Positions 3,832 to 30,659 are shown, counted from the first letter of the stretch. The stretch is DNA of 64,000 bases from an uncultured Gammaproteobacteria bacterium (GCA_964637955.1 CAZWXQ010000003.1:223154-287153); one strand, 5' to 3'. Program-made: numbers and translations. Notes: generated from the sequence alone by a model not told the origin.

Positions 3832-3849
3832 CATTGTTATAATGCTTTT

Positions 3850-7024: not shown

Positions 7025-7052
7025 AAAAATGATGCTATAATACCTCAATCTT

Positions 7053-8087: not shown

Positions 8088-8254
8088 ACCCGTTGATTAA
8101 ATTGTAATTGCAATAAATTTTAATATAAAAAATATTGACCCCCATAGAGAAAGATTTAAAGGCATTAATAATCTGCCTGTTTATGATATTAAGAATAAGA
8201 AAGTGATAAAGAAAAAGGAAATATGCGAATAATAAAAAATACATTTTCGTACCA

Positions 8255-10459: not shown

Positions 10460-11214
10460 TAACAGCAATTGTGCTTACAAAAGACGAAGAGAAAAATATT
10501 GTAGATTGCATTGATGGTTTAGGATTTTGCTCAGAAATTATCATCATCGATGATTACTCGATTGATAAGACATTTGAAATAATTGAAAATTTGTCTTTAA
10601 AAAATAAGAAATTAAAAGTCTTTAAAAGACAACTTGATAATGATTTTTCAGAGCAAAGAAGATTTGGGATTGGAAAGAGTAGTAATGATTGGATTTTTTT
10701 CGTTGATGCAGATGAAAGGATAACTCCAGAACTTGCTACGGAAATAAAAGAAAATTTAACAGTAGATAATAGGTATGGAGGATATCTAATTCCTAGACAC
10801 GATTTTATGTGGGGAAAAAGTCTAGATCATGGGGAGACAGGGAATATAAAGCTATTAAGACTTTTTAACAAAAATAATGGAAAGCTTGAAGGGAAAGTTC
10901 ATGAAATATGGGTTACAAAAAAAGATGTTGGGAGATTAATAAATCCTATTTTGCATTATCCACATCCTACAGTCAGTGAATTTTTAAGAGAAATTAATTT
11001 TTATACAGATCTTCGGGCAAAAGAGCTGTACGATAAGAAAGTTAAAGTAAACGCATTTTCTATAATTCTATATCCCTGTGCTAAATTTATAAGAAATTTT
11101 ATTTTTAAGAGAGGATTTTTAGATGGAGTTGCTGGATTAGTCCATGCAATTTTAATGAGCTTTCACTCCTTTCTTGTTCGTGGAAAGCTTTGGTTTCTTT
11201 GGCAAGATAAATAG
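10456..11214 (+). CDS. GT2-family glycosyltransferase
   Basis: AIVLTKDEEKNIVDCIDGL...EIIIIDDYSIDKT matches GT2 motifs. A 4-nt ATGA overlap with the upstream gene suggests translational coupling. Confidence 0.7.
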   Translation: MITAIVLTKDEEKNIVDCIDGLGFCSEIIIIDDYSIDKTFEIIENLSLKNKKLKVFKRQLDNDFSEQRRFGIGKSSNDWIFFVDADERITPELATEIKENLTVDNRYGGYLIPRHDFMWGKSLDHGETGNIKLLRLFNKNNGKLEGKVHEIWVTKKDVGRLINPILHYPHPTVSEFLREINFYTDLRAKELYDKKVKVNAFSIILYPCAKFIRNFIFKRGFLDGVAGLVHAILMSFHSFLVRGKLWFLWQDK

Positions 11215-12216
11215 ACTTTTATATTTATCAAAAAAAATAGATATTGCTAAACAAACTGCAGGGAGAACTGGGAGCATATATCTTGAAAAATTTTCGATTA
11301 GAGTAAAAGGTGAAAGAGAAAAAACAAAAATTAATGAAAATAACATCCAATAAAAACAAAATTTAATTAATCTGTCTTTTTTTCTAAATTTATAAAGGAA
11401 AAATAAAGCAAAGAAATTTAAAATTAAGTAAATCGAACCTGACAGGAAAATGCGGTATTGTCCCCAATCTAAAGTTCTATATAGGTCATGAAATATTTGA
11501 ATAAAACCTATTCTTACAACTCCATAATTCTGGTCAAGATTTTTAAATTGGATAAGTAGGTCATCTTTCCCAAAAATTAAAAAATTATAAACAATAAGAA
11601 GTGAAGAAGTTAGTGCAAATCCAATCAGGACTCTACTAATTTCTTTATATTTTTTTTCAAAAAATAAAATTATAAATGTAGCCAGTAAAAAACATCCCGA
11701 GATTATCCTTACGTTAAATGCAATTCCTATGATGAGTCCTGAAGTAAAATAATTTTTCTTTATAAAAAAATAAAGAGAGGAAAGAAGTAAAAAGGTTGTT
11801 AATGGTTCGCTTGATGCTTTGGAAGTTTGCATAAGCCATACAGGAGGAAAAAATGCAAACAAGAAATTTATAAAAACATTTTTGAAAATTTTCCACATTA
11901 AATAAAATGAGATCGCAAAAATAACTAGATTTAAAATTATGCCAATTGCTATAATTTGATTAATTAGGTAAGTGAAAGGCAGAATTATTAACAAGTATCC
12001 TGGGAAAAGTCGTTGGTCATAGGCACCGAAATTTGGATTATTTATAAATCCATTTTTTAAAGAGTTAATATAATATACATATCCTTCTTGTTCAAATGAA
12101 AAATTTGGGTTTTCTCTGTTAATTAAGATTAAAATTAATCGAATGCCTATCGCTAGAAGCAAGATGACAATTAGTGTTTTCTGAGTGTTTAATTCAGATT
12201 TTTTAATAATATCCAT
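11152..12216 (-). CDS. Polytopic membrane protein, putative GT-C-like glycosyltransferase or polymerase
   Basis: The 354 aa translation is dominated by hydrophobic helices. It lies within the glycan island. Confidence 0.45.
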   Translation of the reverse strand: MDIIKKSELNTQKTLIVILLLAIGIRLILILINRENPNFSFEQEGYVYYINSLKNGFINNPNFGAYDQRLFPGYLLIILPFTYLINQIIAIGIILNLVIFAISFYLMWKIFKNVFINFLFAFFPPVWLMQTSKASSEPLTTFLLLSSLYFFIKKNYFTSGLIIGIAFNVRIISGCFLLATFIILFFEKKYKEISRVLIGFALTSSLLIVYNFLIFGKDDLLIQFKNLDQNYGVVRIGFIQIFHDLYRTLDWGQYRIFLSGSIYLILNFFALFFLYKFRKKDRLIKFCFYWMLFSLIFVFSLSPFTLIENFSRYMLPVLPAVCLAISIFFDKYKSLFILPKKPKLSTNKKGVKAH

Positions 12217-12341
12217 ATAATCTTAAATGTTATAATAGCTTAAGTATAATTTAAAGTGACTAAAGCCGCATTTTTTTTCATATTCTGGAGTATTCTCATT
12301 TTAATCATCTATGTATATTTTCTGCTTTGTAGAGGAGGATT

Positions 12342-13919
12342 ATGTTTGCAATAGCAATTTTAATTGGTATTTACTCTTATATAATTTTTGCTCTTGGGAT
12401 AGTGGGATTTTTGTCTAAGATTCCAGTTTTGATTTCTACTATAATTTTTCTTTTTGGCGCTGCATTATATTTTAAAAAGCATAGGGAAGATCTTCCAAGA
12501 TTTCAAATTAAAAACCGAAAATTTAAACAACTATTTATTCTATTTTGTGTCTTCGCAGTCATAAATCTAGTCGGAGTATTAGGGCCTGAAATTTCTTTTG
12601 ATGCTTTGTGGTATCACCTGACCATTCCCAAAATCTTTATCGATGCACATAAAATATTTTTTATTGAAGGAAACATTTTTTATTATTCACTAATGCCAAA
12701 ACTTACGGAAATGCTTTATATTCCAGCATTAATGTTTGGTAATGAAAACCTTCCAAAGTTTATTCAATGGTCTTTTGGTATTCTAACAAGCATCGTTGTT
12801 TACAAGATTTCAAGAAAATATTTTGATGAAAAAGTTTCATTTTTTGCTGTGCTTATATTTTATGGAAGTTTGGTAGTGGCTTGGGAATCGACTGTAGCAT
12901 ATATAGATTTATCTCGAACTTTTTTTGAGGTGATGGGACTTCTTGGATTTATAAATTGGTATGAAACAAAAGATAGGAAATGGTTGGTGGAATCAGCAGT
13001 GATGGTAGGATTTGCAATGTCTACAAAAAATTTGGCGATTGGGAGTCTAGTAATTTATTTTGTTTTATTTTTATGTGCAGATAAAAATTATAAACAGATG
13101 ATAAAAAATGCGATATTATTTGTGCTCGTAGCAATATTAACAGCATTGCCTTGGTATCTCTATGCGTATATGTTTTCAGGAAATCCTATCTATCCATTTT
13201 TTGATAAGAGAATAGTTTATAATACTTCATCAGCAATTAATTTAATTACGTTTCCAAAAGAAGCGTTTGATTTTTTCTTAAAACTTGCAGATCCTATTTC
13301 TCCTCTATTTTTAATATTCTTACCGTTAATAATAATTTATTTTAGAAGATTTAATAAACCATTAAAATTAATCGCAATTTACTGCTTGGTAGCAATAATA
13401 ATTTGGTATATAACTCCACGTACTGGTGGAGGGAGATTTATTCTTCCTTATCTTCCTGCTTTTTCGGTGGTCGCAATCGCAGCAATAAGTGAGTTTAAAG
13501 ATAAAAGAATTAAAAAGTTTTCATATTTTTTAATTATTTTGGTATTTGTAATTAATTTGACTTATAGAGCAGTTGCAAATTCCAGATATATACCAGTCAT
13601 AATTGGAAAAGAGTCAAAAGATGAATTTTTAACCAAAAATTTAAATTTTAATTTCAGTGAATTTTATGACACAGATGGATTTTTTAAAGAGAATATAAAA
13701 AAAAATGATAGAGTACTTCTTTTCGGATTCCACAATCTTTATTACGCAGACTTTCCATTTGTAGACTCTTCATATATTAAAAAAGGTGAAGAGTTTAACT
13801 TCGTCGCGACCCAAAACTCTGAACTTCCAGAAAGATTTAAAAATTGGGATTTAATTTATGTTAATGATCTTACAAAAGTTAAAGTATATACTTTAGGAAG
13901 AATAAAATGGCACTACTAA
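12342..13919 (+). CDS. Polytopic membrane protein, putative GT-C-like glycosyltransferase
   Basis: A strong Shine-Dalgarno sequence GAGGAGG lies 6 nt upstream of the ATG. The 525 aa protein has about 12 TM segments and an acidic first-loop motif (ISFDALWYH). Confidence 0.45.
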   Translation: MFAIAILIGIYSYIIFALGIVGFLSKIPVLISTIIFLFGAALYFKKHREDLPRFQIKNRKFKQLFILFCVFAVINLVGVLGPEISFDALWYHLTIPKIFIDAHKIFFIEGNIFYYSLMPKLTEMLYIPALMFGNENLPKFIQWSFGILTSIVVYKISRKYFDEKVSFFAVLIFYGSLVVAWESTVAYIDLSRTFFEVMGLLGFINWYETKDRKWLVESAVMVGFAMSTKNLAIGSLVIYFVLFLCADKNYKQMIKNAILFVLVAILTALPWYLYAYMFSGNPIYPFFDKRIVYNTSSAINLITFPKEAFDFFLKLADPISPLFLIFLPLIIIYFRRFNKPLKLIAIYCLVAIIIWYITPRTGGGRFILPYLPAFSVVAIAAISEFKDKRIKKFSYFLIILVFVINLTYRAVANSRYIPVIIGKESKDEFLTKNLNFNFSEFYDTDGFFKENIKKNDRVLLFGFHNLYYADFPFVDSSYIKKGEEFNFVATQNSELPERFKNWDLIYVNDLTKVKVYTLGRIKWHY

Positions 13920-15103
13920 AATATTTGTTTCCAATACTTTTCTTGGCATTTTCTTTCGGAGAACTAGCGCGAATAAGACTTTTTGCATCAGTTAATTCAG
14001 GAATATTCGATCTAATATTAATTTCTATTCTAGGGATTTGGTTTTTATTTTCCAAAAAATCAAAATACACCCTTTTAAAACCACTTCTACTTTTTTCAGG
14101 TCTAGCACTTTTTTCTTTAGTTATTAATTTTGGAAAATTTCATGTTGATCAGATTTTTATTTCGTCACTTTATCTTGTCAGATTTATTTTATACTCGGGA
14201 ATTTATTTTGTCTTAGTTGATCTAGATAAAAAAAATATAAATCGCATTTCTTTTTATATGCTTTTTTCAGGTCTAGTAATAATAATTTTAGGTTTTCTTC
14301 AATATTTCTTTTACCCAAGCTTAAAAAATTTATACTATCTGGGATGGGATGATCATATGTACAGGTTGTTTTCCACTTTTCTTGACCCAAATTTTACCGG
14401 ATCATTTTTTGTTTTGTTTCTGGTGTTTGTATATATTCTCAAAGAAAAGTTATTTCCAAAAAAATACTTGTGGGCTTCATATCTTGTAATAGCTTTAAAT
14501 TTGATTGCGATAGTTCTGACATTTTCTAGAGGTGCTCTTTTAATGCTTCTAGTTTGCGTAGTTACATATTCCTTATTATCTAAAAACTGGAAAATTACTG
14601 GAGGAATCATTGTCGGATTTATTTTGGTATTCTTTATTCTTTCTCCTAAGTTTTATGTTGAGAATATGAATTTACTTCGCTTCGCTTCCACTGAAGCAAG
14701 AATTGAGTCAGCAAAAAGGGGATTATCTATTTGGCAGGAAAATCCGATGGGAGTAGGATTCAATACTTACAGATTCGCTCGCAAAGCTTATGAGCCCACA
14801 GATTGGACTAATTTTGGTCCAAGTCATGCTGGGAGTGGTATTGATAATAGTTTAATTTTGGTTCTTGCTACAGCGGGTTTTATGGGCTTTGGCGCGTATG
14901 TGTACCTGCTTTATAGGATATTTAAATTGGGTTATTCGAATATTCATGAGAAAGTTAAAGAAAATAAGTTTGCTTTAGTGCTTGTTATTTCGCTCGTTGG
15001 ACTTACGGTAAACAGTTTATTTATCAATAGCCTTTTTTATAGCTTTTTATTATTTTGGATTTTTGTTCTTGCTGGACTTACTGAGAATAGTTCACGTGAA
15101 TGA
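13907..15103 (+). CDS. O-antigen ligase / Wzy_C-domain glycan polymerase family protein
   Basis: It is multi-TM with the LTFSRGALLMLL motif typical of the Wzy_C domain. Length is 398 aa. Confidence 0.6.
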   Translation: MALLKYLFPILFLAFSFGELARIRLFASVNSGIFDLILISILGIWFLFSKKSKYTLLKPLLLFSGLALFSLVINFGKFHVDQIFISSLYLVRFILYSGIYFVLVDLDKKNINRISFYMLFSGLVIIILGFLQYFFYPSLKNLYYLGWDDHMYRLFSTFLDPNFTGSFFVLFLVFVYILKEKLFPKKYLWASYLVIALNLIAIVLTFSRGALLMLLVCVVTYSLLSKNWKITGGIIVGFILVFFILSPKFYVENMNLLRFASTEARIESAKRGLSIWQENPMGVGFNTYRFARKAYEPTDWTNFGPSHAGSGIDNSLILVLATAGFMGFGAYVYLLYRIFKLGYSNIHEKVKENKFALVLVISLVGLTVNSLFINSLFYSFLLFWIFVLAGLTENSSRE

Positions 15104-15890
15104 TTTTTTCAGTTGAATTTCCAGCTCCATCAGTAGAAACTACTTTGATTTCATTATCCCCACCTTTAAGAGTTAAGAAGTAAGACCATTCATTTTGGTT
15201 ATTAAGAATTGCTTGAAAATCATTGACGATTACGCTACTGTCGGGATCACTTTTTCCTTTTACTTCAATTGGATTTGCTCCTGAAATTTGTGCGCCATCA
15301 GAAGGAGAATCGATACTAAGCTCAGGTCCCTTTATTTTATAAGAAACTGTTTGAGAAGGTGAGAATTCGCTTTCAGAAGCGCCTTTAAGAGCTTTTGCTT
15401 TTATGATATTTTCGCCGTCAGTAAGTTCAATATTTGTTTCGAAATCACCATTTTCATCAGCTTTTACTTCTGCTTCTTTGCTACCATTTAAATAAACATA
15501 AACGGTGAGTCCTGAAATGGATGATCCTCCGATTCTCAAAAGCTTTTCTTTGGTTGCTTTGGGTAGTCCATCTAAATCTGGAGCTGAAACAAATTCTTTT
15601 TCAGTTTCCATAGTTTCTTTTTTATCAGGTGAGCTAGTAATTTTTCCAAATAAAAAGCTGGCATCACTAATAAGTGGTAATCCAAATTTGAATAGAAGTG
15701 CGAGAATAATAATTATTCCCAAGACACTAAAAATGAAAGTGTTTCTGGATTTTCTTTGAAAACTTTTATTTAGTCTTGATCTTTTTGGCATAGGTTCTTG
15801 ATTTGTTTTTGGAACATTACTGGAAGAAATATTTTCTTCTCCATCTATTCTAATATTAGCACTTTCGATAGGTGTTTGATTATCCGTCAT
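15078..15890 (-). CDS. Membrane-anchored surface protein with bacterial Ig-like repeats
   Basis: It has a basic N-terminal tail, one TM helix (FIFSVLGIIIILALLF), then two beta-rich repeats ending in DG(A)GN-type motifs. Confidence 0.45.
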   Translation of the reverse strand: MTDNQTPIESANIRIDGEENISSSNVPKTNQEPMPKRSRLNKSFQRKSRNTFIFSVLGIIIILALLFKFGLPLISDASFLFGKITSSPDKKETMETEKEFVSAPDLDGLPKATKEKLLRIGGSSISGLTVYVYLNGSKEAEVKADENGDFETNIELTDGENIIKAKALKGASESEFSPSQTVSYKIKGPELSIDSPSDGAQISGANPIEVKGKSDPDSSVIVNDFQAILNNQNEWSYFLTLKGGDNEIKVVSTDGAGNSTEKIIHVNYSQ

Positions 15891-16441
15891 TTTACATTTT
15901 TGTATTTAAGTATGTGGTCGTCGTATCCATTTTCAAGTTTAATGCCATTTGGAAATTTTCCTAAAACTTTATATCCGGCTTTCTCATACATTCGAACTGC
16001 TTTCTCATTACTTGCGAATGCAGTTAAAAATATTATTTCCAGGTCTGGTAGAGTTTCTATAGCCTCTTTTTCTATTTGATCCAGTAGAATTTTTCCAATT
16101 CCTTTTCCCCTGTAATCTTTAGCAATAGAAATTCCAAGTGTTCCGATATGCCTTTCAGTTCTTTTTCCAAGATCTATCGCAGAATTGCCAATTAGTTTAT
16201 TGTCCGCGAATACCAAAAGCATTACTGATTTTTTATTCAAAATTTGTTCTAATTTCGAATTTAAAAAAGAAATTTCAGTCTCTAAAGTCTCATGTTCGCC
16301 TTGATACGCGATAAATGTTCTTTCATCAGACAGAGTATTTATGTAATCTGTCATGACCTGGGCATCAGAAGAGTCTGGATATCTAATCAGAATTTCTATT
16401 CCTGTTTCTGTTTTGCCTTGAAATACTATTTTTGTATCCAT
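15887..16441 (-). CDS. GNAT-family N-acetyltransferase
   Basis: The acetyl-CoA binding motif A is LGISIAKDYRGKGIGKILL. Length is 184 aa. Confidence 0.75.
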   Translation of the reverse strand: MDTKIVFQGKTETGIEILIRYPDSSDAQVMTDYINTLSDERTFIAYQGEHETLETEISFLNSKLEQILNKKSVMLLVFADNKLIGNSAIDLGKRTERHIGTLGISIAKDYRGKGIGKILLDQIEKEAIETLPDLEIIFLTAFASNEKAVRMYEKAGYKVLGKFPNGIKLENGYDDHILKYKNVK

Positions 16442-16557
16442 ATTAATTAACTGATTGTAATTTATCTTTAACTACTATATTTATAGCCAGTAATTTTAGT
16501 GAGCCGAAGATGAAGATCGAACTCACGGCTTGCTCTTTATACCATTAAATTTTGTTG

Positions 16558-16629
16558 AGCCGTTTCTCGGGATTGAACCGAGGACCTACTCTTTACGAAA
16601 GAGTTGCTCTACCACTGAGCTAAAACGGC
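16558..16629 (-). tRNA. tRNA-Thr (anticodon CGU)
   Basis: The reverse complement folds as a cloverleaf. The acceptor is GCCGTTT/AAACGGC, the D-arm GCTC/GAGC, the anticodon stem ACTCT/AGAGT with loop TTCGTAA, and the T-arm CTCGG-TTCAATC-CCGAG. No CCA is encoded. Confidence 0.75.
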
Positions 16630-16681: not shown

Positions 16682-17920
16682 ATGTTGATTGACATTATAG
16701 GTTTTGATAAAATTCCGTCCATGAACATAGAAGCAGGTCCAAATATTGGTAGTTGGGAAAGTTACGGTGGGGGAGTTTTTAGAAGAGAATCAAGTTTCCC
16801 TGATGGTAAAAGAGTATTAGAGAAAAAGATTACGACTGGATTTAAAAAAGAGTCGAGGCAAGAAACTTATCCAGATGGAATGGAGAGATTTTCAAGTTTT
16901 ACTGACAGGGAAGAATTCCTTAAAAATATTGGAAGCGTTGCTTTACTTGAATCTATTGCTCCACCTGTAGAAATAAGATATCAATTTGACGGGACCCAAG
17001 TTTCACTATTTTTTTCTGATGATGGCCAAACACATATCTTGATGTCTTTTGGTGAGTTTGGTACTTCCTGGGTGAGTAGAAATCATTCTACTTTTATATA
17101 TGCGAATTATGATACTGAAGGTAAAATAGCGAATTTGTCATTAAAAACAGACGAGATTAAAGAAAAAATAGAGCATGAAGAATTTGATGATTCTTATGCT
17201 GCACTTCATGAGCTCATGTCATATATCGACCATGATCTAGATGAATATTCGGGTATAATACAGGGTGGTATTATTCATCTAAATGAGCAGATAGAAAGAT
17301 TTTCGAGTGATCAAAATACTCTAGATTTTCTGAGGGGCTTTAGCTCTATTCTTTACGAGAGAGTTTTAGATATGATTGATGACCCAATAGAACGAGAGAA
17401 AGCAGACGTAAAGCTTAAAAAAATTGGACTGGAAGATGATATTTTATATCGTTTGCTTGTAGAGGCAGACCCAGGAGAAACAATAAGTAGAAAGGCATTA
17501 GAGGATATAGAAAGTGGAGAATTTATAAAAGATATTATAAGTAGTTCAGTAGATGTTGCTTCAAGATCAAATCGTTTTTATTCGAAACGGAGAGTGTCGA
17601 TAAATGTGTCAAATGAGAATGAATTTACATATCGAGAAACAGAACTTGATTCAGAAAAAGAACTCGAGGGCTATGCGCTAGTAGCTGAAGATAAATTTGA
17701 GTGGGATGAAGTTATTAAAAGTCAGGATATGGAAATAAGTTTTAGTATAAACGAGAATATGCTTAAGATTTTATGGAAAAGAAGTGATAGGCAGGTGTAT
17801 ATGGCAGAGATTCCATATAAATTAACTGATAAAAATGCATATAAAATAGCGAAGGATCCAGATGCAGACTTCAGGGTAGTAAGAGATCTAATTCCAGCTA
17901 GTCTTCAAAAAGTAGTTTAA
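16682..17920 (+). CDS. Hypothetical acidic soluble protein
   Basis: It is a 412 aa ORF with no recognisable motif. An alternative leaderless start at 16721 (MNIEAG) sits 7 nt after a TTGATT-N17-TAAAAT promoter-like element. Confidence 0.5.
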   Translation: MLIDIIGFDKIPSMNIEAGPNIGSWESYGGGVFRRESSFPDGKRVLEKKITTGFKKESRQETYPDGMERFSSFTDREEFLKNIGSVALLESIAPPVEIRYQFDGTQVSLFFSDDGQTHILMSFGEFGTSWVSRNHSTFIYANYDTEGKIANLSLKTDEIKEKIEHEEFDDSYAALHELMSYIDHDLDEYSGIIQGGIIHLNEQIERFSSDQNTLDFLRGFSSILYERVLDMIDDPIEREKADVKLKKIGLEDDILYRLLVEADPGETISRKALEDIESGEFIKDIISSSVDVASRSNRFYSKRRVSINVSNENEFTYRETELDSEKELEGYALVAEDKFEWDEVIKSQDMEISFSINENMLKILWKRSDRQVYMAEIPYKLTDKNAYKIAKDPDADFRVVRDLIPASLQKVV

Positions 17921-17940: not shown

Positions 17941-19146
17941 ATGAATAAGTCACTTTCTTGGTTTATTTCTCGCATCGCATTAATTATTTTTGCCTACATA
18001 ATTCTTTATTTTGGCCTGAATGGTTTGACTAGCACTTACAGAGAGGGTGATAGTATTAATTATCATATTCCGATCGCTGAAGCCTTTTTAAATGGAGACA
18101 TAGTTAATCCAGCAAATTTTCAAGCGGAAAGATTTCTCAAGTATTCACCTGGAAGTAGTGAGGCAGTTATAGCTGGATTAATGCTACTTAAGATTCCAAT
18201 AAATGTTTTTAATGTAATTGCAGTTATCGTTTTGTTTGGAGTTTGTTTCTTCACTGCTAGACGGTTTCTCATGGAAAAAGATTACGCGATAATTTTCGCA
18301 GGAAGTATAGTGACACTTCATACTATGACTCGATGGATAAATACCCAGGTTGTAGATATTTGGATAGCTATTTGGTTTTTTTTGGTTCTTGGTCTTTTAG
18401 AGAAGCCGGAAAAATCTATAAAGTATTTTTTATTCCTAGGTTTTGGAGCTGGAATGTTAATTGGATCCAAATATTCAGGGCCACTTTTTCTTTTGGTTTT
18501 AGGAATTTTTTATTTTAAGAAGATTCTAAAATTCATAAATTTAGAAAGAATAATAGCCTTTCTAATTCCATTTTCACTAGCAGGACTTACTTGGTATTTT
18601 AGAAACTTTTTAGTGACAGGAAATCCTATGTATCCTCAAGGATTTCTTATGTTTAAGGACGGAGGATTTAAAATTTTGAACATAAATGTTTGGCGGGCTA
18701 CATTTTTATATCCGAGCGGAATAAGTAACTTTATAAACGCCATAATTAGCGAGTTCGGCTTATGGTCAATTTCGATTTTTACTCCACTGTTATTGTTAAA
18801 TAAAAAAATCAGAAATACAAATTATGTAAGTTTGATTTTCATTGGAAGCTTCGTGTTTGCTATCTTCCTTTTTCTTCCATCAGATAGACATTATAATATA
18901 GCTGTATCAGTTTTCAGATATTCTTATCCAGCGTTTATTACATTTATTCTAGCGATATTTTTACTTGCTAAAAAGTTTAAAAAGGAAAATATACTTATTA
19001 TTTTCGCTCTCGCAAATATGATTATAATTCCAGAGCTAGCATATAGACCAAAATTAATTTTTTTACTTTTGCCAATAGTTTTTATAGTTTTTTATGAAGA
19101 TGAAGTGGTGAAATTTATTAAAGGTAAAGCTCGGCAAGTAAATTAA
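17941..19146 (+). CDS. Polytopic membrane protein, putative GT-C-like glycosyltransferase
   Basis: It is 401 aa with at least 9 TM helices and a first-loop YREGDSINYH acidic motif. It converges on the polyprenol-P sugar synthase gene. Confidence 0.45.
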   Translation: MNKSLSWFISRIALIIFAYIILYFGLNGLTSTYREGDSINYHIPIAEAFLNGDIVNPANFQAERFLKYSPGSSEAVIAGLMLLKIPINVFNVIAVIVLFGVCFFTARRFLMEKDYAIIFAGSIVTLHTMTRWINTQVVDIWIAIWFFLVLGLLEKPEKSIKYFLFLGFGAGMLIGSKYSGPLFLLVLGIFYFKKILKFINLERIIAFLIPFSLAGLTWYFRNFLVTGNPMYPQGFLMFKDGGFKILNINVWRATFLYPSGISNFINAIISEFGLWSISIFTPLLLLNKKIRNTNYVSLIFIGSFVFAIFLFLPSDRHYNIAVSVFRYSYPAFITFILAIFLLAKKFKKENILIIFALANMIIIPELAYRPKLIFLLLPIVFIVFYEDEVVKFIKGKARQVN

Positions 19147-19816
19147 AAATAAGTTTAATCCCAGTAATGGTATGAAGCTTACTCTTGCCCCATTTTCTGG
19201 CGTTTTCGCGAGTAGGAACTTCCATAAGTCTATATTTTTTCTTCAGGCATTTGACCACAAATTCCTGTTCTATATCAAAACCGTCTGCTTTAAGGTCTAG
19301 TTTTAGAGCCACAGATTTTTTGACAGCGCGAAAGCTAAAAAGCACATCGCTATAACCAGTGTTAAACCTTTTGTTTACCAGATAGGCAAGGAAATCTGCG
19401 CCGCCTGATCTGGCGATTCCCCAGAAGTCCATGTTTAGATCATAGCTTCCGCCAGTGCGCCTCGAACCAATCACGGCATCTGCTTTATCTTGAAAAAGGG
19501 GATTTAATAAAGAAGGAATTTCTTTTTCATTATGTGATCCATCAGCGTCAAAGAACAGAAGATATGGATTCTTGGCTTTTTTAATTCCAATGCGCACTGC
19601 GTCTCCGCGACCAACACCATTATCTAGAATATAGTGAGCTCCAAACTTCTTTGTAATTTCCTTCGTAGAGTCCGTAGAATGCCCATCAACGACGATTATT
19701 TCGCTTCCGTATGGCTTTACACTTTTCAGTATTCGAAGCAGCCCTTCGCCTTCATTACGTGCTGGGATAATTACTGTAACTTTTGATTTATTAAAACGAG
19801 TCGCTTTTGTTGCCAT
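19118..19816 (-). CDS. GT2 polyprenol-monophosphate sugar synthase (DPM1/GtrB-like)
   Basis: VTVIIPARNEGEGL...IIVVDGHSTDSTKEI matches this family. Length is 232 aa. Confidence 0.75.
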   Translation of the reverse strand: MATKATRFNKSKVTVIIPARNEGEGLLRILKSVKPYGSEIIVVDGHSTDSTKEITKKFGAHYILDNGVGRGDAVRIGIKKAKNPYLLFFDADGSHNEKEIPSLLNPLFQDKADAVIGSRRTGGSYDLNMDFWGIARSGGADFLAYLVNKRFNTGYSDVLFSFRAVKKSVALKLDLKADGFDIEQEFVVKCLKKKYRLMEVPTRENARKWGKSKLHTITGIKLIFNLLAELYL

Positions 19817-19868: not shown

Positions 19869-19877
19869 TGATATAAT
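19869..19877 (+). promoter_or_regulatory. Extended -10 promoter element (TGaTATAAT) 4 nt upstream of the ATG-ATG start
   Basis: TGATATAAT spans 19869-19877. The ORF starts at 19882/19885. This implies a leaderless transcript. Confidence 0.4.
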
Positions 19878-19881: not shown

Positions 19882-20397
19882 ATGATGAACAAGCAGAAGA
19901 CTGCATACTTGAATATTTGGGAATATCCATCAAGGCTTGATGATCCAATTCATTGGTATGCTAAAGCTTGGAGTTATGCTTCTACCTCTCACTATCTAAT
20001 GGTTCATTTTGAAAATATAAAAGATGGCGAAAAGCTAGAGGATGTAGGTCATTTATTTAACGCTATTCAAGCAGTACCTTTTATAACAGGAATAGCAATA
20101 GAATTATTTATGAAAGGTTATCTTGTGTTTCAAGGTGTCGATTCTGATGAGCTAATGAGTGAGTACAGGCATAATCTTAAAAAAATTCGACAAAAATGCT
20201 GCACATACGATGATAAAAGATTTTTAAATCGCGAATTGATATTCTTCACTGATAAGCTTGGAGAGCAAATAATGAGTAAAGGGGGAATTAGATATCCTGA
20301 TAAGCTCAATACTGGCGTATACTTTGAAGATTTTAATATTGCTTTAATTACTTTAGAAAAAATTACTACAGAAATTTCTTCTGACGTAGTTAAATAA
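19882..20397 (+). CDS. Hypothetical protein
   Basis: It is a 171 aa ORF with higher GC than the flanks. It has its own promoter and no recognisable domain. Confidence 0.5.
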   Translation: MMNKQKTAYLNIWEYPSRLDDPIHWYAKAWSYASTSHYLMVHFENIKDGEKLEDVGHLFNAIQAVPFITGIAIELFMKGYLVFQGVDSDELMSEYRHNLKKIRQKCCTYDDKRFLNRELIFFTDKLGEQIMSKGGIRYPDKLNTGVYFEDFNIALITLEKITTEISSDVVK

Positions 20398-20488
20398 GTA
20401 TCTCTAAGTTAGCAAAAGTTGTAAATTTAATTTCTATATTTGCAGCGTTCGATGACTTTGATTTTGATAAGTTTGGTAAGATAAGAGA

Positions 20489-21535
20489 ATGGATGAAATA
20501 GTTGTTTCAGAGCCTTCAGGAGAACTTCCCATATCCGGTCAAAAATTAGGAATGATTGTGAGCGCTATGGAATCTTCAGCGCTTGTGGTTTATGATAGTG
20601 CGCCTGGTCAACAAATCCTAGAAGGAGATATTGATGGATTGGGTTTTAGAGTAAGAATGCCACATCTGAGAAAAGGAAAGCATGCAAATGTAGGAATTGT
20701 TGATATTAATGATGTCGATGGTAGTGTTTATTCATTTGTTTTAAGAAATAAATCTCATGATGCGAAGAAACATCAGGAAATAGTTAAAAATCATCCAGGA
20801 GTTAGAGGTTTACTGCCAAGGCAGTACGACATTGTTGGGGACTGGGTAGTTTTGGAAAGGTTGCAAGGGTTAGAGCTAGAAGAATTATTAGATAGAATGG
20901 ATACGGATTCTGATTTTGTGGTTAAGTACGCAGAAGAAGCCTGGAGTACAATTCAATCAGTTTTGGGAGAGGGACTGGAAACACAAGATGTTAGATTTGC
21001 AATCGGTCATAATGTTATGGTTAATCCTGAATCTGCAAAGGTAAGACTGATTGAGCAAACTTCTCTCTCAAAGTCGCCAAGAGGTTATTCGGGAAATGAG
21101 AGATTAACGCGAATGCTGATGAATGAGCTGGAAGGTGCAAATGAATATTCTGATTCGCAGCTGCAGTTTTTGATTTCACTTTTTGGAAAAGCAATAGAAG
21201 TAAATGATCCAAATCAATTATTTGTGAGAGGAAGGGCAATTAAGAAAGGGCATCCTGATTTCGAAGATATTTGGAAGTCTTATTATGGAGGCAGCATGAT
21301 TCTTAAGTCCGAGGGAAATGATAAGCCTTGGTATTTAGAGCAGAGAACCACCGAGCCGCCAGAGACTCTTGGCTTTTGGGAACAAGGAGTTACAAGAACT
21401 TTTTCTCCTGCATTTTGGGATTCTGTTAATGCTGGTTCAGTTGAAGGATTGAGAGATGTATTGAATTCTGGAGCAGGTAGAGCTGAAATTACTGATCCTA
21501 ATGACTTTAGGAGTAGACCTATTTTAATTATTTAA
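20489..21535 (+). CDS. Hypothetical protein with weak protein-kinase-like features (possible atypical or pseudo-kinase)
   Basis: It is 348 aa. The segment VVLERLQGLEL...AIGHNVMVNPESAKVRLIEQ resembles a kinase hinge plus catalytic loop, with His-Asn in place of HxD and IEQ in place of DFG. Confidence 0.45.
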   Translation: MDEIVVSEPSGELPISGQKLGMIVSAMESSALVVYDSAPGQQILEGDIDGLGFRVRMPHLRKGKHANVGIVDINDVDGSVYSFVLRNKSHDAKKHQEIVKNHPGVRGLLPRQYDIVGDWVVLERLQGLELEELLDRMDTDSDFVVKYAEEAWSTIQSVLGEGLETQDVRFAIGHNVMVNPESAKVRLIEQTSLSKSPRGYSGNERLTRMLMNELEGANEYSDSQLQFLISLFGKAIEVNDPNQLFVRGRAIKKGHPDFEDIWKSYYGGSMILKSEGNDKPWYLEQRTTEPPETLGFWEQGVTRTFSPAFWDSVNAGSVEGLRDVLNSGAGRAEITDPNDFRSRPILII

Positions 21536-21580
21536 ACAAAGCTAGGAAAATTAATTTTTGTGTTTGCACGTTCGATAATG

Positions 21581-21609
21581 TTGACACTGGCTTTTGAAGT
21601 GATATAATC
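21581..21609 (+). promoter_or_regulatory. Sigma70-type promoter, TTGACA-N16-TATAAT, 10 nt upstream of the ATG at 21619 (leaderless)
   Basis: TTGACA spans 21581-21586 and TATAAT 21603-21608, read directly from the sequence. Confidence 0.5.
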
Positions 21610-21618
21610 CCCGTTAAT

Positions 21619-22227
21619 ATGTTAAATCCAGATAAAAGACCCATGCTTGGCGCAGCGATTGTATTAGGCACCTTTGCTGTTTTAGGAGGAGGAATAGCAG
21701 CAAATAACATTGGAGATTTTTATAGAAAAGCAAGCGAAAGACGAGCTGCAGAAGAACAATCTAAAAGAAATGAAGAACAGGCTTGGCTTACACGGGTCGC
21801 AAGCGACCGTCTAGGTGAATGGGGGCTTACTGGAGAAGTGACCGTAACAGGAGGACCAGAGGTTGTAGTCCAAAAAAATGAGGATGGTTCTGAAATTCTC
21901 ATGATTAATTTCACTTGGCTTGATCCTGATGGAGAAACAAGTCATTTTGCATCCTTACATCCTAGAGCAACAAAAATAGATGTAGTTAAATCTGAAGATC
22001 CTCAAGCTGAATCAACTATGGAAGTAGACTTTGAAGATTTGTCAGGTCTAGGATATAACATAGCACTCGCCGACACATACGAGATTATGGGTGAATATAG
22101 GGAGCCGGAATATCCATTGGAGGCTTTTTCATCAAGAGTTACTTTTAATTTGAATCCAGTTGATCTCCAAGCTTTTAATGATTCGCTTGGAGCACAGCCT
22201 CTTCAAGATCCATCAGTAAATTCATAA
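21619..22227 (+). CDS. Hypothetical membrane-anchored protein
   Basis: It is 202 aa with an N-terminal TM or signal anchor (MLGAAIVLGTFAVLGGGIAA) and an acidic C-terminal domain. Confidence 0.5.
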   Translation: MLNPDKRPMLGAAIVLGTFAVLGGGIAANNIGDFYRKASERRAAEEQSKRNEEQAWLTRVASDRLGEWGLTGEVTVTGGPEVVVQKNEDGSEILMINFTWLDPDGETSHFASLHPRATKIDVVKSEDPQAESTMEVDFEDLSGLGYNIALADTYEIMGEYREPEYPLEAFSSRVTFNLNPVDLQAFNDSLGAQPLQDPSVNS

Positions 22228-22282
22228 AGTTCATTTGTTTGATTACTCCGTTTCTTATATTGGTGATTGTATACGTTTTTAA

Positions 22283-22311
22283 TTGATTTGTAGCTATTTT
22301 ATGGCTATAAT
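22283..22311 (+). promoter_or_regulatory. Sigma70-type promoter, TTGATT-N17-TATAAT, 8 nt upstream of the ATG at 22320 (leaderless)
   Basis: Read directly from the sequence. Confidence 0.45.
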
Positions 22312-22319
22312 CCATTCTC

Positions 22320-23786
22320 ATGTCGCCAGAACGTCAAATGTCAGATAAAAGCAGAAGGTATAGAGAAAGAGATGCTCGCTTAGGGATTGATCGGAAATGG
22401 CCTGAAGACAAGCCGCCTGGAAAATTTGTAGGTGATCTTTTAGGTTGGGATCAAGAAAAATTTACTGGGCCTGCAAGAGGTTTAGATCGGGCTGTGGAAA
22501 GGGCGCAGAATTTCGAACTTTGGAGTCCCGAAATTGAAGAAAGAACCTTAAGATTTGCGACATCTTTCGGGCTTTTATATGCAGAAAATTATCTTCAAGC
22601 TGCAAATAATATAAGAATTTTGGATGGATTAAGAGAGGCTCCAGTCAATCACCAAGCCCAAGATACCCTGTATGAAGTCTCACTTGATGCATATAGAACT
22701 TTAAAAAGAAAAGCAGGTCAGTTTTTCTTAAAATCCTATCCTGCTATGATTAAGCTTGGTCAAGATCCACATCAATATTTAGCTAGGGTTCAAAGTGCTA
22801 AAAGCGCTGGAGGAAGTTTGTTTGCTGCAAAAGTTGCCACATATTTACCAGACGTAATTGGAAAGGGTGGAAATCCAGATGAATTTAGCGCTGCTGCTTT
22901 AGCTGTTAGGCATGACGTTTCTTTTAAAACATCTTCGTTATTTATGTCACTTGCATCTGAAGTAGCTAGTGAAGGTGAAGGAAGGATGTTTGATTTTAAA
23001 GATAGAGTGATAGAAAGCGCAGAAGTATTGGGACCTGAAACTACTGCCTGGGCTCTGCCAGCATTTGTTTATCTAGAGCATCGAGCAGGAGTAAATAGCG
23101 CACAAACTCAAGCAGAAATCGCAGAAATAATTAAGCAAAAAGGAGATAAAGCTGCGCAGTGGTATATCGCGGGACTCAGGCGTATTGGAGGTGCAATGAT
23201 AAACCCTGATGACGACCCAAGTAAATATAGACGTAGATTAGAGCATCCTGAGGATATTATTCCTACTGTGCAAACGCTTGAAGATTTTAAAGCAGTCTAT
23301 CCGCAGGTTTTAGATCGGCTTGGAATTACCGCTGCATCTTTTTTCTCACGTACAGTGGAATTTACTGACCCAGCTTCTTATATGGATGCTATGGTATATG
23401 CTCAAGGAGTAATAGGCAAGCCATTATTTGATAAAGCATTATGGGCAATCATAAGATCTTCTAAAGGGGCTTGGAATCATGGTGAAGCCACAAGCGCTTG
23501 GATGATGTTTAATCATTTAGTTAGTAAATATAGGAGAAATCCTGATGAGAAGTTTTCTGCACTTATGGATTATGCAGTTAAAACAGCAAGCTTTAAAGAC
23601 AGTCGACTTGGAACTTTATCTCCTCGTAGAAAAATGTCAGAAGAGCTACAAGCTAGATATGGATTTGAAGGATATAGTTCTGATTATGCCTCTACAGACG
23701 AAGGAGAAACAGAGCTATATAGAAAGTGGAGAGCCCCGCAACGTGAAGCAACTCAGAGATGGCTAGCAAGTCAAAATAAATCTTAA
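22320..23786 (+). CDS. Hypothetical protein
   Basis: It is a 488 aa soluble protein of mostly alpha-helical composition with no recognisable motif. Confidence 0.55.
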   Translation: MSPERQMSDKSRRYRERDARLGIDRKWPEDKPPGKFVGDLLGWDQEKFTGPARGLDRAVERAQNFELWSPEIEERTLRFATSFGLLYAENYLQAANNIRILDGLREAPVNHQAQDTLYEVSLDAYRTLKRKAGQFFLKSYPAMIKLGQDPHQYLARVQSAKSAGGSLFAAKVATYLPDVIGKGGNPDEFSAAALAVRHDVSFKTSSLFMSLASEVASEGEGRMFDFKDRVIESAEVLGPETTAWALPAFVYLEHRAGVNSAQTQAEIAEIIKQKGDKAAQWYIAGLRRIGGAMINPDDDPSKYRRRLEHPEDIIPTVQTLEDFKAVYPQVLDRLGITAASFFSRTVEFTDPASYMDAMVYAQGVIGKPLFDKALWAIIRSSKGAWNHGEATSAWMMFNHLVSKYRRNPDEKFSALMDYAVKTASFKDSRLGTLSPRRKMSEELQARYGFEGYSSDYASTDEGETELYRKWRAPQREATQRWLASQNKS

Positions 23787-23804
23787 TCCTTCGGTGCTTT
23801 TAAT

Positions 23805-24215
23805 CTAATTTCTGTGTTTTCTTCGTTCGGCGACTTTGAGCTGGAGGATGCTTCTTCGAAGTTCTGTCTCGAGTTGTGCTAATTCTTCTTGAGATTTACT
23901 TTCTGATTTCATTTTTTCAGCTTTAGCTCTAGCTTGTTCTACTTTTGCAATTTCAATATCTTCCGCTCTGACCGCATAGTCCCCAAGAATATTTACTTTA
24001 TTATTATTTACTTCCATATAGCCTCCCATAATAGCTATTGAATCAGTTTTATTCCCATTTTTTATTTGAAGTTCACCTGGTAATACTTGTGTTAAGAGGG
24101 AAATATGATGAGGCAAAATTCCAAGCTCTCCTTTTACAGTTGGCACAAGAACTTCATCGGCTTCACCCGAAAAGATCTGGGCTTGGGGAGTTAAGATATC
24201 AACTGTTAGTTTCAT
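23805..24215 (-). CDS. atpC: F1Fo ATP synthase epsilon subunit
   Basis: It is 136 aa with an N-terminal beta-sandwich-type sequence. It is the last gene of the atp operon. Confidence 0.8.
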   Translation of the reverse strand: MKLTVDILTPQAQIFSGEADEVLVPTVKGELGILPHHISLLTQVLPGELQIKNGNKTDSIAIMGGYMEVNNNKVNILGDYAVRAEDIEIAKVEQARAKAEKMKSESKSQEELAQLETELRRSILQLKVAERRKHRN

Positions 24216-24247: not shown

Positions 24248-26492
<2,245 letters not shown>

Positions 26493-30047: not shown

Positions 30048-30151
30048 AAAAAATCTTAATTTTTAATTACTAACAACAGAAAGTATTTTACAATTCAAGG
30101 CTATAATTCGTCAAGCAGCGAATTTTAGAGCATTCATATATTGTGAAATGT

Positions 30152-30180
30152 TTGACAACAAATTTCTAGTTATTTATAAT
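30152..30180 (+). promoter_or_regulatory. Consensus sigma70 promoter TTGACA-N17-TATAAT, 8 nt upstream of the ATG at 30189 (leaderless)
   Basis: TTGACA spans 30152-30157 and TATAAT 30175-30180, with an exactly 17-nt spacer. Confidence 0.5.
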
Positions 30181-30188
30181 CCCAATCT

Positions 30189-30659
30189 ATGTCAGCATCT
30201 GAAAGACGATCAGCGGAAAGAGCTTGGAGGGATGGATTGCCCAGAGTGGAAGAAGTGGTAAGTCCAGCTCTTATAAGGTACTTAAGACAATCTGCTGTCG
30301 ATAGGTATGGCCACGCAGAAGAAAAAGCAGTTAAAGATTTTGCTCAAGCATTTCTAACAGATTTTGCAGGACATCCAAGAATTGAAGAGGAAGTTGCGCG
30401 ATTGGTTTTGCGTTCAGTAGTTCAAGGTCAGTGGGCAACAGTTGTCTCACTTAATCCTTATTCTGATTCGCGAGCTGATTATAATGCGCAGTTAATAGCT
30501 GAGGGTTATGGCTTATTAAGGCCTTTCAATTTTGGAGAAAGACAGGAAGATGTTGATCCTGTGAATGCACTTAGGCCGACAAGATTTTTATTGGAAGGTG
30601 TTGCGGCAAGATTAAATGGAGATATAGCAATAAAAGTAACTCCAGAAGGCCGACGCTAA
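30189..30659 (+). CDS. Hypothetical protein
   Basis: It is a 156 aa ORF, noticeably GC-richer than its surroundings. It sits between the atp operon and dnaE. Confidence 0.5.
   Translation: MSASERRSAERAWRDGLPRVEEVVSPALIRYLRQSAVDRYGHAEEKAVKDFAQAFLTDFAGHPRIEEEVARLVLRSVVQGQWATVVSLNPYSDSRADYNAQLIAEGYGLLRPFNFGERQEDVDPVNALRPTRFLLEGVAARLNGDIAIKVTPEGRR

What the first reader, a model, noticed from the sequence alone, without database searches (positions are those of the whole stretch)
19882..23786. Four co-oriented hypothetical genes, each with its own promoter, between the glycan island and the atp operon. This is the best candidate for an uncharacterised system.
The run is four plus-strand ORFs of 171, 348, 202 and 488 aa with no recognisable domains. 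Only one has a membrane anchor. Their GC is visibly higher than the adjacent glycan island. Each is preceded by its own -10 or -35/-10 promoter within 4-10 nt of the start codon. The 348 aa protein has a kinase-like hinge and catalytic-loop pattern with substituted catalytic residues (GHN and IEQ), which suggests a pseudokinase scaffold. A kinase-fold protein, a membrane-anchored small protein and a large helical protein together resemble some defence or signalling modules. The function cannot be assigned from sequence.
Basis: partly seen in the sequence, partly recalled or inferred. Interest (0 to 1): 0.7.

Follow-up and report, generated by a model that had tools for sequence, protein, structure and literature searches.

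The report
Strain-variable gene cassettes beside atpC
The four unknown genes are not one system but separately acquired, separately transcribed cargo genes in a strain-variable insertion hotspot at the end of the ATP-synthase epsilon gene, marked by leftover ~40-base copies of that gene's tail.

Summary
Four + strand ORFs (171, 348, 202 and 488 aa) lie at the stated coordinates. None hits a protein family, only ORF3 has a membrane anchor, and each has a promoter 4-10 nt before its ATG.

In three syntenic relatives only ORF2 is present. ORF1, ORF3 and ORF4 are absent or replaced by unrelated genes (a receiver-like protein, a 537-aa orphan, a CNNM/CBS transporter). Homologues of ORF1, ORF2 and ORF4 elsewhere sit alone in unrelated contexts.

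The GT2-atpC gap is a variable hotspot. Degenerate ~40-nt copies of the atpC 3' end lie at gene junctions (window 20422-20463 and 21548-21587, also in L002 and L004). This is the hallmark of repeated insertion at an attachment site in the atpC tail. No recombinase was found nearby.

Promoters this close to the start imply leaderless mRNAs, which is this genome's normal style (17 of 63 genes).

- ORF2 is predicted to have a protein-kinase-like fold with a non-canonical active site.
- ORF1 belongs to a ~170-aa family with weak HEPN similarity, found in toxin-antitoxin and TIR neighbourhoods.
- ORF3 and ORF4 remain orphans.

This is a new variant of a known kind (an additive genomic islet) and is moderately interesting.

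The parts
19118..19816 (-). GT2 glycosyltransferase gene, the conserved left border of the variable gap
   Evidence: Pfam Glycos_transf_2, E = 2.5e-25. 89-96% aa identity in L002, L003 and L004. DNA homology with the relatives ends at 19853.
19869..19877 (+). ORF1 extended -10 box (TGaTATAAT), 4 nt before the first ATG and 7 nt before the second, implying a leaderless mRNA
   Evidence: Sequence read; spacing analysis.
19882..20397 (+). ORF1, 171 aa: strain-specific cargo gene, a member of a ~170-aa family with weak HEPN-like similarity
   Evidence: Absent from L002-L004. 37 representatives at E <= 1e-3. Invariant W25, E74, K78, L81, H97, Y138, P139. 7 of 31 members hit PF05168 below threshold. 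Homologues lie in TA/TIR neighbourhoods.
20422..20463 (-). Pseudo-atpC 3' end, copy 1 (degenerate copy of the last ~12 codons plus stop of atpC), in the ORF1/ORF2 spacer
   Evidence: 31 of 42 ungapped matches to the real end, against 23-27 best in shuffles. Gapped score 54 against a null maximum of 26. Family D1. Alignments A4 and A6. blastn cross-match to the L004 atpC end.
20474..20482 (+). ORF2 extended -10 box (TGgTAAGAT), 6 nt before the ATG
   Evidence: Sequence read. The same TAAGAT box lies 6 nt before the ATG in L002.
20489..21535 (+). ORF2, 348 aa: the only one of the four genes shared with relatives; predicted protein-kinase-like fold with non-canonical catalytic residues
21548..21587 (-). 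Pseudo-atpC 3' end, copy 2, in the ORF2/ORF3 spacer; its right end overlaps the -35 box of the ORF3 promoter
   Evidence: Gapped score 35 against a null maximum of 28, p < 0.002. Families D3 and D4. Alignment A6. An orthologous copy follows ORF2 in L004 at 9117-9158, 37 of 42 matches.
21581..21608 (+). ORF3 promoter TTGACA-16-TATAAT (12 of 12 matches, TG-extended), 10 nt before the ATG
21619..22227 (+). ORF3, 202 aa: strain-specific orphan with an N-terminal transmembrane anchor (residues 9-27) and an acidic C-terminal domain
   Evidence: Absent from relatives. No hits in Pfam, NCBIfam, PADLOC, PHROGs, PDB, phages, plasmids or IMG/VR.
22283..22311 (+). ORF4 promoter TTGATT-17-TATAAT, 8 nt before the ATG; conserved with the gene in L006 and L007
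22320..23786 (+). ORF4, 488 aa: strain-specific all-helical orphan, probably inserted together with ORF3
23800..23841 (-). The real atpC 3' end (stop codon plus last ~12 codons), the proposed attachment-site sequence from which the pseudo-ends derive
   Evidence: DNA homology with the relatives resumes at 23803-23806.
23805..24215 (-). atpC (ATP synthase epsilon subunit), the conserved right border of the gap
   Evidence: 92-93% aa identity in L002-L004. Pfam ATP-synt_DE_N in the relatives.

Best explanation
The region between the GT2 gene and the 3' end of atpC is an additive, strain-variable insertion hotspot, not a gene system.

Shown:
- The cargo differs between close relatives while both flanks are conserved.
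- Only ORF2 is shared.
- Degenerate ~40-nt direct copies of the atpC 3' end (last ~12 codons plus stop) sit at gene junctions in all three lineages.
- Each gene has its own promoter so close to the ATG that the mRNA must be leaderless.

Inferred: small one- or two-gene segments were inserted repeatedly by site-specific, attachment-site-type recombination at a ~40-nt site overlapping the atpC tail. Each event kept atpC intact and left a pseudo-end behind. ORF3 and ORF4 came in as one segment. The recombinase acts in trans or has been lost.

The cargo is functionally unrelated:
- ORF1: a divergent HEPN-like small protein, a type seen in toxin-antitoxin and defence islets.
- ORF2: an atypical protein-kinase-like-fold protein and the longest-resident gene.
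- ORF3: a membrane-anchored exported orphan.
- ORF4: a helical orphan.

They are expressed independently, using this organism's usual leaderless promoter style.
For: Variable content between conserved flanks:
- tblastn and blastn maps show homology breaking exactly at the gene junctions. Gene tables of L002-L004 agree.
- Homologues of ORF1, ORF2 and ORF4 elsewhere occur alone.

atpC-end copies:
- Window 20422-20463 matches at 31 of 42 positions, against a shuffle maximum of 27.
- Gapped local-alignment scores were 54, 35, 68, 33 and 32 for five spacers in three lineages. Each beat all 500 shuffles.
- All copies align in register and end at ...CTTTGA.
- Controls: no copy at >= 27 of 40 in 143 kb downstream and 128 kb upstream of atpC in 29 distant lineages.
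- The spacers are reproduced exactly in independent assemblies.

Second array with the same architecture: L008 has a 37-52-nt repeat in each of three spacers, around a 169-aa orphan and an ORF2 homologue upstream of RNase P RNA.

Independent transcription: promoters. The ORF4 promoter travels with the gene in L006 and L007.

Leaderless style is genome-wide: 17 of 63 genes against 6.8% of background ATGs.

Real genes: dN/dS 0.13-0.19; ORF1 has 37 relatives.

Precedent: partial copies of the target gene mark serial cassette insertion in additive genomic islands (PMC4898812) and in tycheposon islands, where ~40-nt att copies flank elements and later arrivals push earlier ones inward (10.1101/2020.12.28.424599).
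Against: - No integrase or recombinase was found in the 64-kb window or in L002-L005 and L008. This was only a crude motif scan plus reading the translations.
- The inserts are far smaller (0.6-2.9 kb) than typical integrative elements.
- The copies farther from atpC are better preserved than the nearer ones in both the window and L004. That is the opposite of a simple 'newest next to atpC' model, so the order of events is unresolved.
- No atpC-end copy lies on the GT2 side of ORF1, of the L002 143-aa gene, or of L004 ORF2.
- Only three related lineages could be sampled.
- Other variable junctions in the window (next to tRNA-Thr, and between atpB and dnaE) show no flanking repeats.
- ORF3 never received a valid large-database homology search (one search failed).
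Confidence: 0.65

Rival explanations
1. The four genes form a strain-specific functional module: a kinase-fold scaffold, a membrane-anchored protein, a helical protein and a small HEPN-like effector acting together in defence or signalling.
For: The genes are co-oriented and tightly packed. ORF2 has a kinase-like fold. The ORF1 family has weak HEPN similarity and lies in TA/TIR neighbourhoods. Variable islets are where defence genes tend to accumulate.
Against: The genes never co-occur in any relative or in any homologue's context. Four separate promoters. No PADLOC hit for the four proteins or for the ORF1 family. atpC-end scars separate ORF1, ORF2 and ORF3+ORF4 into independently acquired units.
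Confidence: 0.06
2. The gap is variable, but content turns over by homologous recombination between the conserved flanks (replacement from related strains). The atpC-like ~40-mers are retained because they work as promoter or terminator modules, not because they are insertion scars.
For: The right end of the copies supplies the -35 box of the ORF3 promoter (TTGACA). It also supplies a -35-like TTGAGT 18 nt upstream of the TAAGAT box of ORF2 in L002. GC3 of the cargo equals the host's, which suggests donors from the same lineage. No recombinase was found. Far copies are better preserved than near ones.
Against: The copies reproduce atpC coding sequence, including the stop codon, in register. 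It is hard to see how that arises without duplication of the target. The window's own ORF2 promoter does not use the copy as a -35 box. The L004 copy is not at promoter spacing. No terminator-like structure was found. Homologous replacement does not by itself create duplications of a flank.
Confidence: 0.17
3. The run is the decayed remnant of one larger integrated element (a prophage, satellite or integrative island) that entered at the atpC 3' end and has since lost its integrase and most of its genes.
For: Duplication of a target gene's 3' end is typical of integrase-mediated insertion. The genes are orphans.
Against: No matches to phage records, plasmids or IMG/VR contigs for any of the four proteins; the single ORF1 candidate was spurious. 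There are several internal att copies rather than two terminal ones. ORF2 is shared with relatives, while its neighbours on both sides differ. Codon composition is host-like.
Confidence: 0.07

Closest known systems
Additive flexible genomic islands (Alteromonas and other free-living bacteria; PMC4898812)
   Same: A fixed chromosomal hotspot between conserved genes. The number and identity of cassettes differ between close strains. Cassette additions are marked by a direct repeat of part of the target gene. The cargo is miscellaneous. A low-GC 'replacement'-type glycan island lies next door.
   Different: The target here is the 3' end of a protein-coding gene (atpC), not a tRNA or tmRNA. The cassettes are single genes of 0.6-2.9 kb, each with its own leaderless promoter. 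No integrase is in the neighbourhood. The host has a small, low-GC genome, apparently from a poorly sampled lineage.
Tycheposon-driven islands of Prochlorococcus (10.1101/2020.12.28.424599)
   Same: ~40-nt attachment-site copies flank the elements. Serial integration at one site pushes older material inward. Decayed partial target copies are scattered in the island. Cargo-only remnants occur in a streamlined genome.
   Different: Tycheposons carry tyrosine recombinases and often replication modules, and they target seven tRNA/tmRNA genes. Neither feature is seen here.
Phage 21 / e14 integration into the icd gene of E. coli (from my own knowledge, not checked here)
   Same: Insertion into the 3' end of an essential protein-coding gene. 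The incoming DNA supplies a substitute 3' end, so the gene stays intact and a displaced pseudo-3'-end remains.
   Different: Those are single prophage-scale elements with an integrase. Here there is an array of tiny cassettes with several pseudo-ends.
Integron gene-cassette arrays
   Same: A tandem array of mostly single-gene cassettes separated by short recombination-site-like repeats. The content varies by strain.
   Different: No IntI integrase or attI site. The repeats are copies of atpC coding sequence, not attC sites. The cassettes carry their own promoters, whereas integron cassettes are typically promoterless.
Protein-kinase-like superfamily (Bud32, RIO, aminoglycoside phosphotransferases, WaaP), for ORF2
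   Different: No sequence-level match to any kinase family, even at lenient thresholds. No glycine-rich loop; instead a conserved PHLRKGKHAxVGIVD motif. Arg instead of the strand-3 Lys. GHN in place of HxD, and IEQ in place of DFG. There is an extra ~90-residue C-terminal region.
HEPN domain (Pfam PF05168), for ORF1
   Same: The ELxxKxxL ... HxL ... RYP pattern. 7 of 31 family members give sub-threshold PF05168 matches over the same core region. The genes are small and solitary, in TA/TIR-rich neighbourhoods.
   Different: All matches are below the Pfam cut-off (13-20 bits against 22). The window protein itself does not match. There is no conserved Rx4-6H motif and no adjacent nucleotidyltransferase partner.

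Membership tests
   Only ORF2 is present in L002, L003 and L004. Homologues of ORF1, ORF2 and ORF4 elsewhere occur alone.
   Spacers of 83-92 nt, each holding its own promoter 4-10 nt from the ATG. No transcript data are available.
Known anti-phage defence systems (PADLOC-DB 2.0) | A match to a defence protein model | tested here: not met
   No hits at E <= 1 for the four proteins. Only scattered single-member noise for the ORF1 family.
Additive genomic island / serial att-site insertion | Strain-variable content between conserved flanking genes | tested here: met
   blastn and tblastn maps against L002, L003 and L004.
Additive genomic island / serial att-site insertion | Direct repeats of part of the target gene at cassette borders | tested here: met
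   Five pseudo-atpC ends in three lineages, each exceeding all 500 shuffles. No hits in 29 control loci.
Additive genomic island / serial att-site insertion | A site-specific recombinase in or near the island | tested here: not met
   No tyrosine or serine recombinase motif in six-frame translations of the window, L002-L005 or L008, and none seen in the translations. Only 64 kb of a ~300-kb contig was visible, so a trans-acting enzyme is not excluded.
Additive genomic island / serial att-site insertion | Excision or integration intermediates (circles, empty sites) | not testable with these tools
   This needs raw reads from SRR14271332 and SRR14271336, or long reads.
Integron | An adjacent IntI integrase with attI, and attC sites between promoterless cassettes | tested here: not met
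   No recombinase. The repeats are atpC coding sequence. The cassettes have their own promoters.
Protein-kinase-like superfamily (ORF2) | A bilobal kinase fold | tested here: met
Protein-kinase-like superfamily (ORF2) | Canonical catalytic residues (strand-3 Lys, HxD...N, DFG Asp) | tested here: not met
   The family alignment shows VLR, GHN and IEQ at the expected places. An alternative register (D167, N175, E189) cannot be verified without coordinates or a better model.
Protein-kinase-like superfamily (ORF2) | Sequence-profile membership (Pfam Pkinase, APH, RIO1, Kdo and related) | tested here: not met
   No kinase family at E <= 10 for any of 5 members. The PDB profile search gave only noise. 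hhalign against the window's own APH-family protein gave probability 0.2%.
HEPN domain, PF05168 (ORF1) | A match above Pfam's gathering score | tested here: not met
   7 of 31 family members match at 13-20 bits (cut-off 22) over profile positions 26-74 or 34-111. The window protein does not match.
HEPN domain, PF05168 (ORF1) | A conserved Rx4-6H catalytic motif | tested here: not met
   H97 is invariant, but no Arg is conserved 5-7 residues upstream. R/K137-Y138-P139 is conserved elsewhere in the protein.
HEPN domain, PF05168 (ORF1) | A four-helix up-and-down fold | not tested

The most novel reading that the evidence does not exclude
Small-genome, low-GC bacteria of this lineage may have a gene-capture platform that works like an integron but without a linked integrase. 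Promoter-equipped, leaderless single-gene cassettes would be inserted serially at ~40-nt sites next to essential genes: the atpC 3' end here, and the region upstream of RNase P RNA in L008. Insertion would rely on a trans-acting or so far unrecognised recombination mechanism. The atypical kinase-fold ORF2 family is the one gene common to both arrays seen so far.
Probability: 0.15. Interest if true: 0.7.

Novelty: new variant of a known kind. Interest (0 to 1): 0.4.

Why it matters
It removes a false lead: this is not a four-gene defence or signalling system.

It also gives a concrete, sequence-level picture of how a streamlined, poorly sampled bacterium gains accessory genes. Genes arrive one or two at a time, at a fixed site in the tail of an essential gene. 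Each arrives with a ready-made leaderless promoter, and each event leaves a readable scar.

If the insertion mechanism proves to be recombinase-independent or trans-acting, that would bear on how small-genome bacteria that lack obvious mobile elements keep a flexible gene pool.

It also flags two small uncharacterised families for follow-up:
- a kinase-fold family with an unusual active site (ORF2);
- a ~170-aa HEPN-like family that lives in toxin-antitoxin and TIR neighbourhoods (ORF1).

Tried and rejected
1. Direct family scans of the four proteins against Pfam, NCBIfam, PADLOC and PHROGs gave nothing.
2. A concatenated ORF1+ORF3 query, meant to save a capped search, returned nothing at all, not even the proteins themselves. 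It is uninformative, and ORF3 is left without a valid large-database search.
3. PDB sequence and profile searches for ORF1, ORF2, ORF3 and ORF4 gave only noise.
4. Phage origin: no tblastn hits in phage or plasmid records and none in IMG/VR. The single ORF1 candidate (L089) was a shared 8-mer inside a capsid-like ORF.
6. Profile comparisons of the ORF2 family with the window's own APH-family kinase and with L004's 537-aa protein had no signal, because each template was a single sequence.
7. The metagenome scan anchored on atpC returned only distant relatives (<= 46% identity). It served as a negative control but not as a survey of the hotspot.
8. Flanking-repeat tests around homologues in L005, L006, L007, L090, L092 and L094, and at the window's other variable junctions, were negative.
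9. Exact look-ups with atpC and GT2 found only the same strain.
10. The afdb50 fold library was unavailable.
11. I rejected the idea that higher GC marks foreign origin, because GC and GC3 equal those of the housekeeping genes.
12. I rejected inferring insertion order from scar decay, because the far copies are the better preserved ones.

Full report
**1. Observation.** None matches Pfam, NCBIfam, PADLOC or PHROGs. Only ORF3 has a transmembrane-grade hydrophobic segment, at residues 9-27. GC of the run is 0.382 against 0.294 for the upstream glycan island. However, the atp operon is 0.362 and the rest of the window 0.357, and third-position GC (0.23-0.27) equals that of atpD, atpA, dnaE and gatAB (0.21-0.28). 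The glycan island is the compositional outlier, and the four genes look native.

**2. Promoters.** Each gene has a -10 box very close to its start.

| Gene | Promoter | Coordinates | Distance to ATG |
|---|---|---|---|
| ORF1 | TGaTATAAT (extended -10) | 19869-19877 | 4 nt (7 nt to the second ATG) |
| ORF2 | TGgTAAGAT (extended -10, no usable -35) | 20474-20482 | 6 nt |
| ORF3 | TTGACA-16-TATAAT (12 of 12) | 21581-21608 | 10 nt |
| ORF4 | TTGATT-17-TATAAT | 22283-22311 | 8 nt |

Transcription normally starts about 7 nt after the -10 box, so these mRNAs would have essentially no leader and no Shine-Dalgarno sequence. A perfect TATAAT 3-12 nt before an ATG occurs at only 0.76% of the window's ATGs, so three of four by chance has P about 2e-6.

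This is the genome's ordinary style, not a peculiarity of the locus. 17 of 63 genes have a -10-like box at 3-12 nt, against 6.8% of background ATGs. Examples are 3850, 7053, 17941, 19118(-), 30189 and 40013. Genes inside operons carry GGAGG-type sites instead. The ORF4 promoter is conserved with the gene in L006 and L007, so the promoter belongs to the gene unit.

**3. The four genes are not a system.**
- ORF2 has only five relatives among 5.8 billion clusters. Their contigs are decisive.
- In L002 and L003 (ORF2 70% identical) the GT2-atpC gap holds an unrelated 143/128-aa gene with a weak receiver-domain match, then ORF2, then atpC.
- In L004 (86-90% identical, but split by a 1-nt deletion) the gap holds ORF2, a 537-aa orphan and a CNNM/CBS transporter.
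- ORF1, ORF3 and ORF4 are absent from all three lineages by tblastn. DNA homology with the window breaks exactly at the gene junctions: 19853/20472, 21510/23806.
- More distant ORF2 homologues lie next to PhdYeFM/PIN toxin-antitoxin pairs (L005) or upstream of an RNase P RNA gene (L008).
- ORF4 homologues (about 52% identity) lie between a secreted-protein gene and a convergent DPPxY methyltransferase, with no ORF3.
- ORF1 homologues are solitary.

**4. What the locus is.**
- The spacers contain degenerate direct copies of the atpC 3' end. On the + strand this reads TTAATTTCTGTGTTTGCGGCGTTCGGCGACTTTGA, the reverse complement of the codons for ...VAERRKHRN plus the stop codon.
- In the window the copies are at 20422-20463 (ORF1/ORF2 spacer) and 21548-21587 (ORF2/ORF3 spacer). 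The true end is at 23800-23841.
- The first copy matches at 31 of 42 positions ungapped, where the best match in 20 shuffled windows was 23-27.

Gapped local alignments against 500 shuffles each:

| Spacer | Score | Null maximum |
|---|---|---|
| Window ORF1/ORF2 | 54 | 26 |
| Window ORF2/ORF3 | 35 | 28 |
| L004 ORF2/537 | 68 | 28 |
| L004 537/CNNM | 33 | 29 |
| L002 143/ORF2 | 32 | 29 |

- The ORF3/ORF4 spacer is not significant (p = 0.40), so ORF3 and ORF4 probably arrived together.
- All copies are in register and end at ...CTTTGA, after which the sequences diverge.
- As a control, 29 distant atpC loci (143 kb downstream, 128 kb upstream) contain no copy at >= 27 of 40.
- The spacers are reproduced exactly in independent assemblies from two samples.
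- The window's true atpC end spells the Arg-Arg-Lys codons as TTTTCTTCG. The window's pseudo-ends and the true ends of L002 and L004 use TTTGCGGCG-type spelling, and L002's pseudo-end has the TTTTCTT form. This is consistent with exchange of the gene's tail during insertion. That last step is inference.
- A second array has the same architecture. In L008 a 37-52-nt repeat lies in each of three spacers, around a 169-aa orphan and the ORF2 homologue, just upstream of RNase P RNA.

**5. Mechanism.** A duplicated ~40-nt piece of the target gene on both sides of an insert is the classic signature of attachment-site recombination. Serial insertion at one site gives arrays of cassettes separated by partial target copies. 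[quoted passage not shown]

I therefore read the locus as an additive islet whose attachment site overlaps the atpC tail.
- Shown: variable content, conserved flanks, target-derived repeats, independent promoters.
- Inferred: the recombination mechanism and its enzyme.

Weak points:
- No recombinase motif in the window or the relatives.
- The inserts are very small (0.6-2.9 kb).
- The far copies are better preserved than the near ones, so the order of events cannot be read from decay.
- No copy lies on the GT2 side.
- Other variable junctions lack repeats.

The main rival is homologous replacement between the flanks, with the 40-mers kept for promoter function. They do supply the -35 box of the ORF3 promoter, and a -35-like box for L002's ORF2 promoter. 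But replacement does not explain how copies of atpC coding sequence, stop codon included, came to be duplicated.

**6. The cargo.**
- *ORF1.* An exhaustive HMMER search found 37 representatives, the best at 44% identity. The family signature is DPxxW, ELYMKGYL, HxLxxLRxxC and GGxRYP. Seven of 31 members hit Pfam HEPN below threshold over the same core. Homologues lie among YafQ, HicA and Gp49/HTH genes (L090/L091) and near a TIR protein (L094), with no fixed partner. It is probably a divergent HEPN-like protein. No function has been tested.
- *ORF3.* A membrane-anchored acidic orphan, never properly searched.
- *ORF4.* dN/dS is 0.13-0.19. It is all-helical, the model is poor and no fold could be assigned.
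- None of the four has phage, plasmid or viral-contig relatives.

**7. Verdict.** The 'system' interpretation is refuted, while the kinase-fold sub-claim is supported. The best explanation is an additive insertion hotspot at the atpC 3' end, carrying independent, leaderless cargo genes. This is a new variant of a known kind: the target is a protein-coding gene, the cassettes are tiny and carry their own promoters, and no recombinase is linked.

Interest is moderate (0.4). It would rise if the insertion mechanism turned out to be recombinase-independent or a general gene-capture platform in small-genome bacteria.

Limits: only three related lineages were available, only 64 kb of the genome was visible, the structural models were moderate or poor, and the organism's taxonomy is undetermined.

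Noticed in passing
whole window, e.g. starts at 3850, 7053, 17941, 19816(-), 30189, 40013: Leaderless-type promoters (a -10 box 3-12 nt before the start codon) are common: 17 of 63 genes against 6.8% of background ATGs. Eight genes have a perfect TATAAT. Genes inside operons use GGAGG-type ribosome-binding sites instead.
   Followed up: partly
window 16682-17920: The 412-aa acidic orphan next to tRNA-Thr (16557-16629) is also strain-specific. L002, L003 and L004 carry an unrelated 221/222-aa gene in its place. No flanking repeats were detected.
   Followed up: partly
window 30125-30656 (gene 30189-30659): The gap between atpB and the dnaE 3' end is another variable spot. The window has one 156-aa orphan, L002 has a 168-aa gene (which shares an EG[VI]AAR[LI]NGD C-terminal motif with it) plus a 458-aa gene, and L004 has nothing.
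   Followed up: partly
L004 8057-9101: ORF2 in L004 is split into 98-aa and 258-aa pieces by a 1-nt deletion in an AAGAAA run. It is either a pseudogene or an assembly error.
   Followed up: partly
L004 9208-10821: The 537-aa orphan that replaces ORF3/ORF4 in L004 contains GITHGFPHPGNI...IYDLDS, which looks like a kinase-type catalytic loop with the Asp substituted. It has no Pfam hit.
   Followed up: partly
L008 11046-11402: An RNase P RNA (class A) scores 95.6 bits, just under Rfam's gathering score of 100 (E = 6e-30). The record is labelled 'uncultured Gammaproteobacteria', but its gene content (PMT_2-type glycosyltransferases, orphans, leaderless-type promoters) resembles that of the window's organism.
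   Followed up: partly
window 1-16441: The glycan-synthesis island has markedly lower GC (0.294) than the rest of the window (about 0.36). It behaves like a 'replacement'-type surface-glycan island.
   Followed up: no
window 24248-25681 (-): The longest ORF for atpD (477 aa) overlaps atpG by 44 nt. Relatives-466 aa, so the real start is probably the internal Met (MPNNKDG...).
   Followed up: no
window 41361-42329 (-): A bona fide APH-family phosphotransferase (PF01636, E = 2e-21, HGDYSPKH...ILDFG) sits in the operon with the MurT/GatD-like genes. It is unrelated in sequence to ORF2.
   Followed up: partly
L095-L098 (samples SRR14271332 and SRR14271336): Short-read assemblies of the same strain break inside this locus, within ORF2 in one sample and near the ORF3/ORF4 spacer in the other. 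This could reflect population heterogeneity at the hotspot, or simply low coverage.
   Followed up: no
window 20413-20421 and L004 11977-11987: Similarity between the window's first pseudo-end and L004's true atpC junction extends about 10 nt beyond the atpC stop codon (GTTGTAAA), into what is the 3' end of the CNNM gene in L004. Either the attachment site is nearer 48 nt, or the two junctions share ancestry.
   Followed up: no
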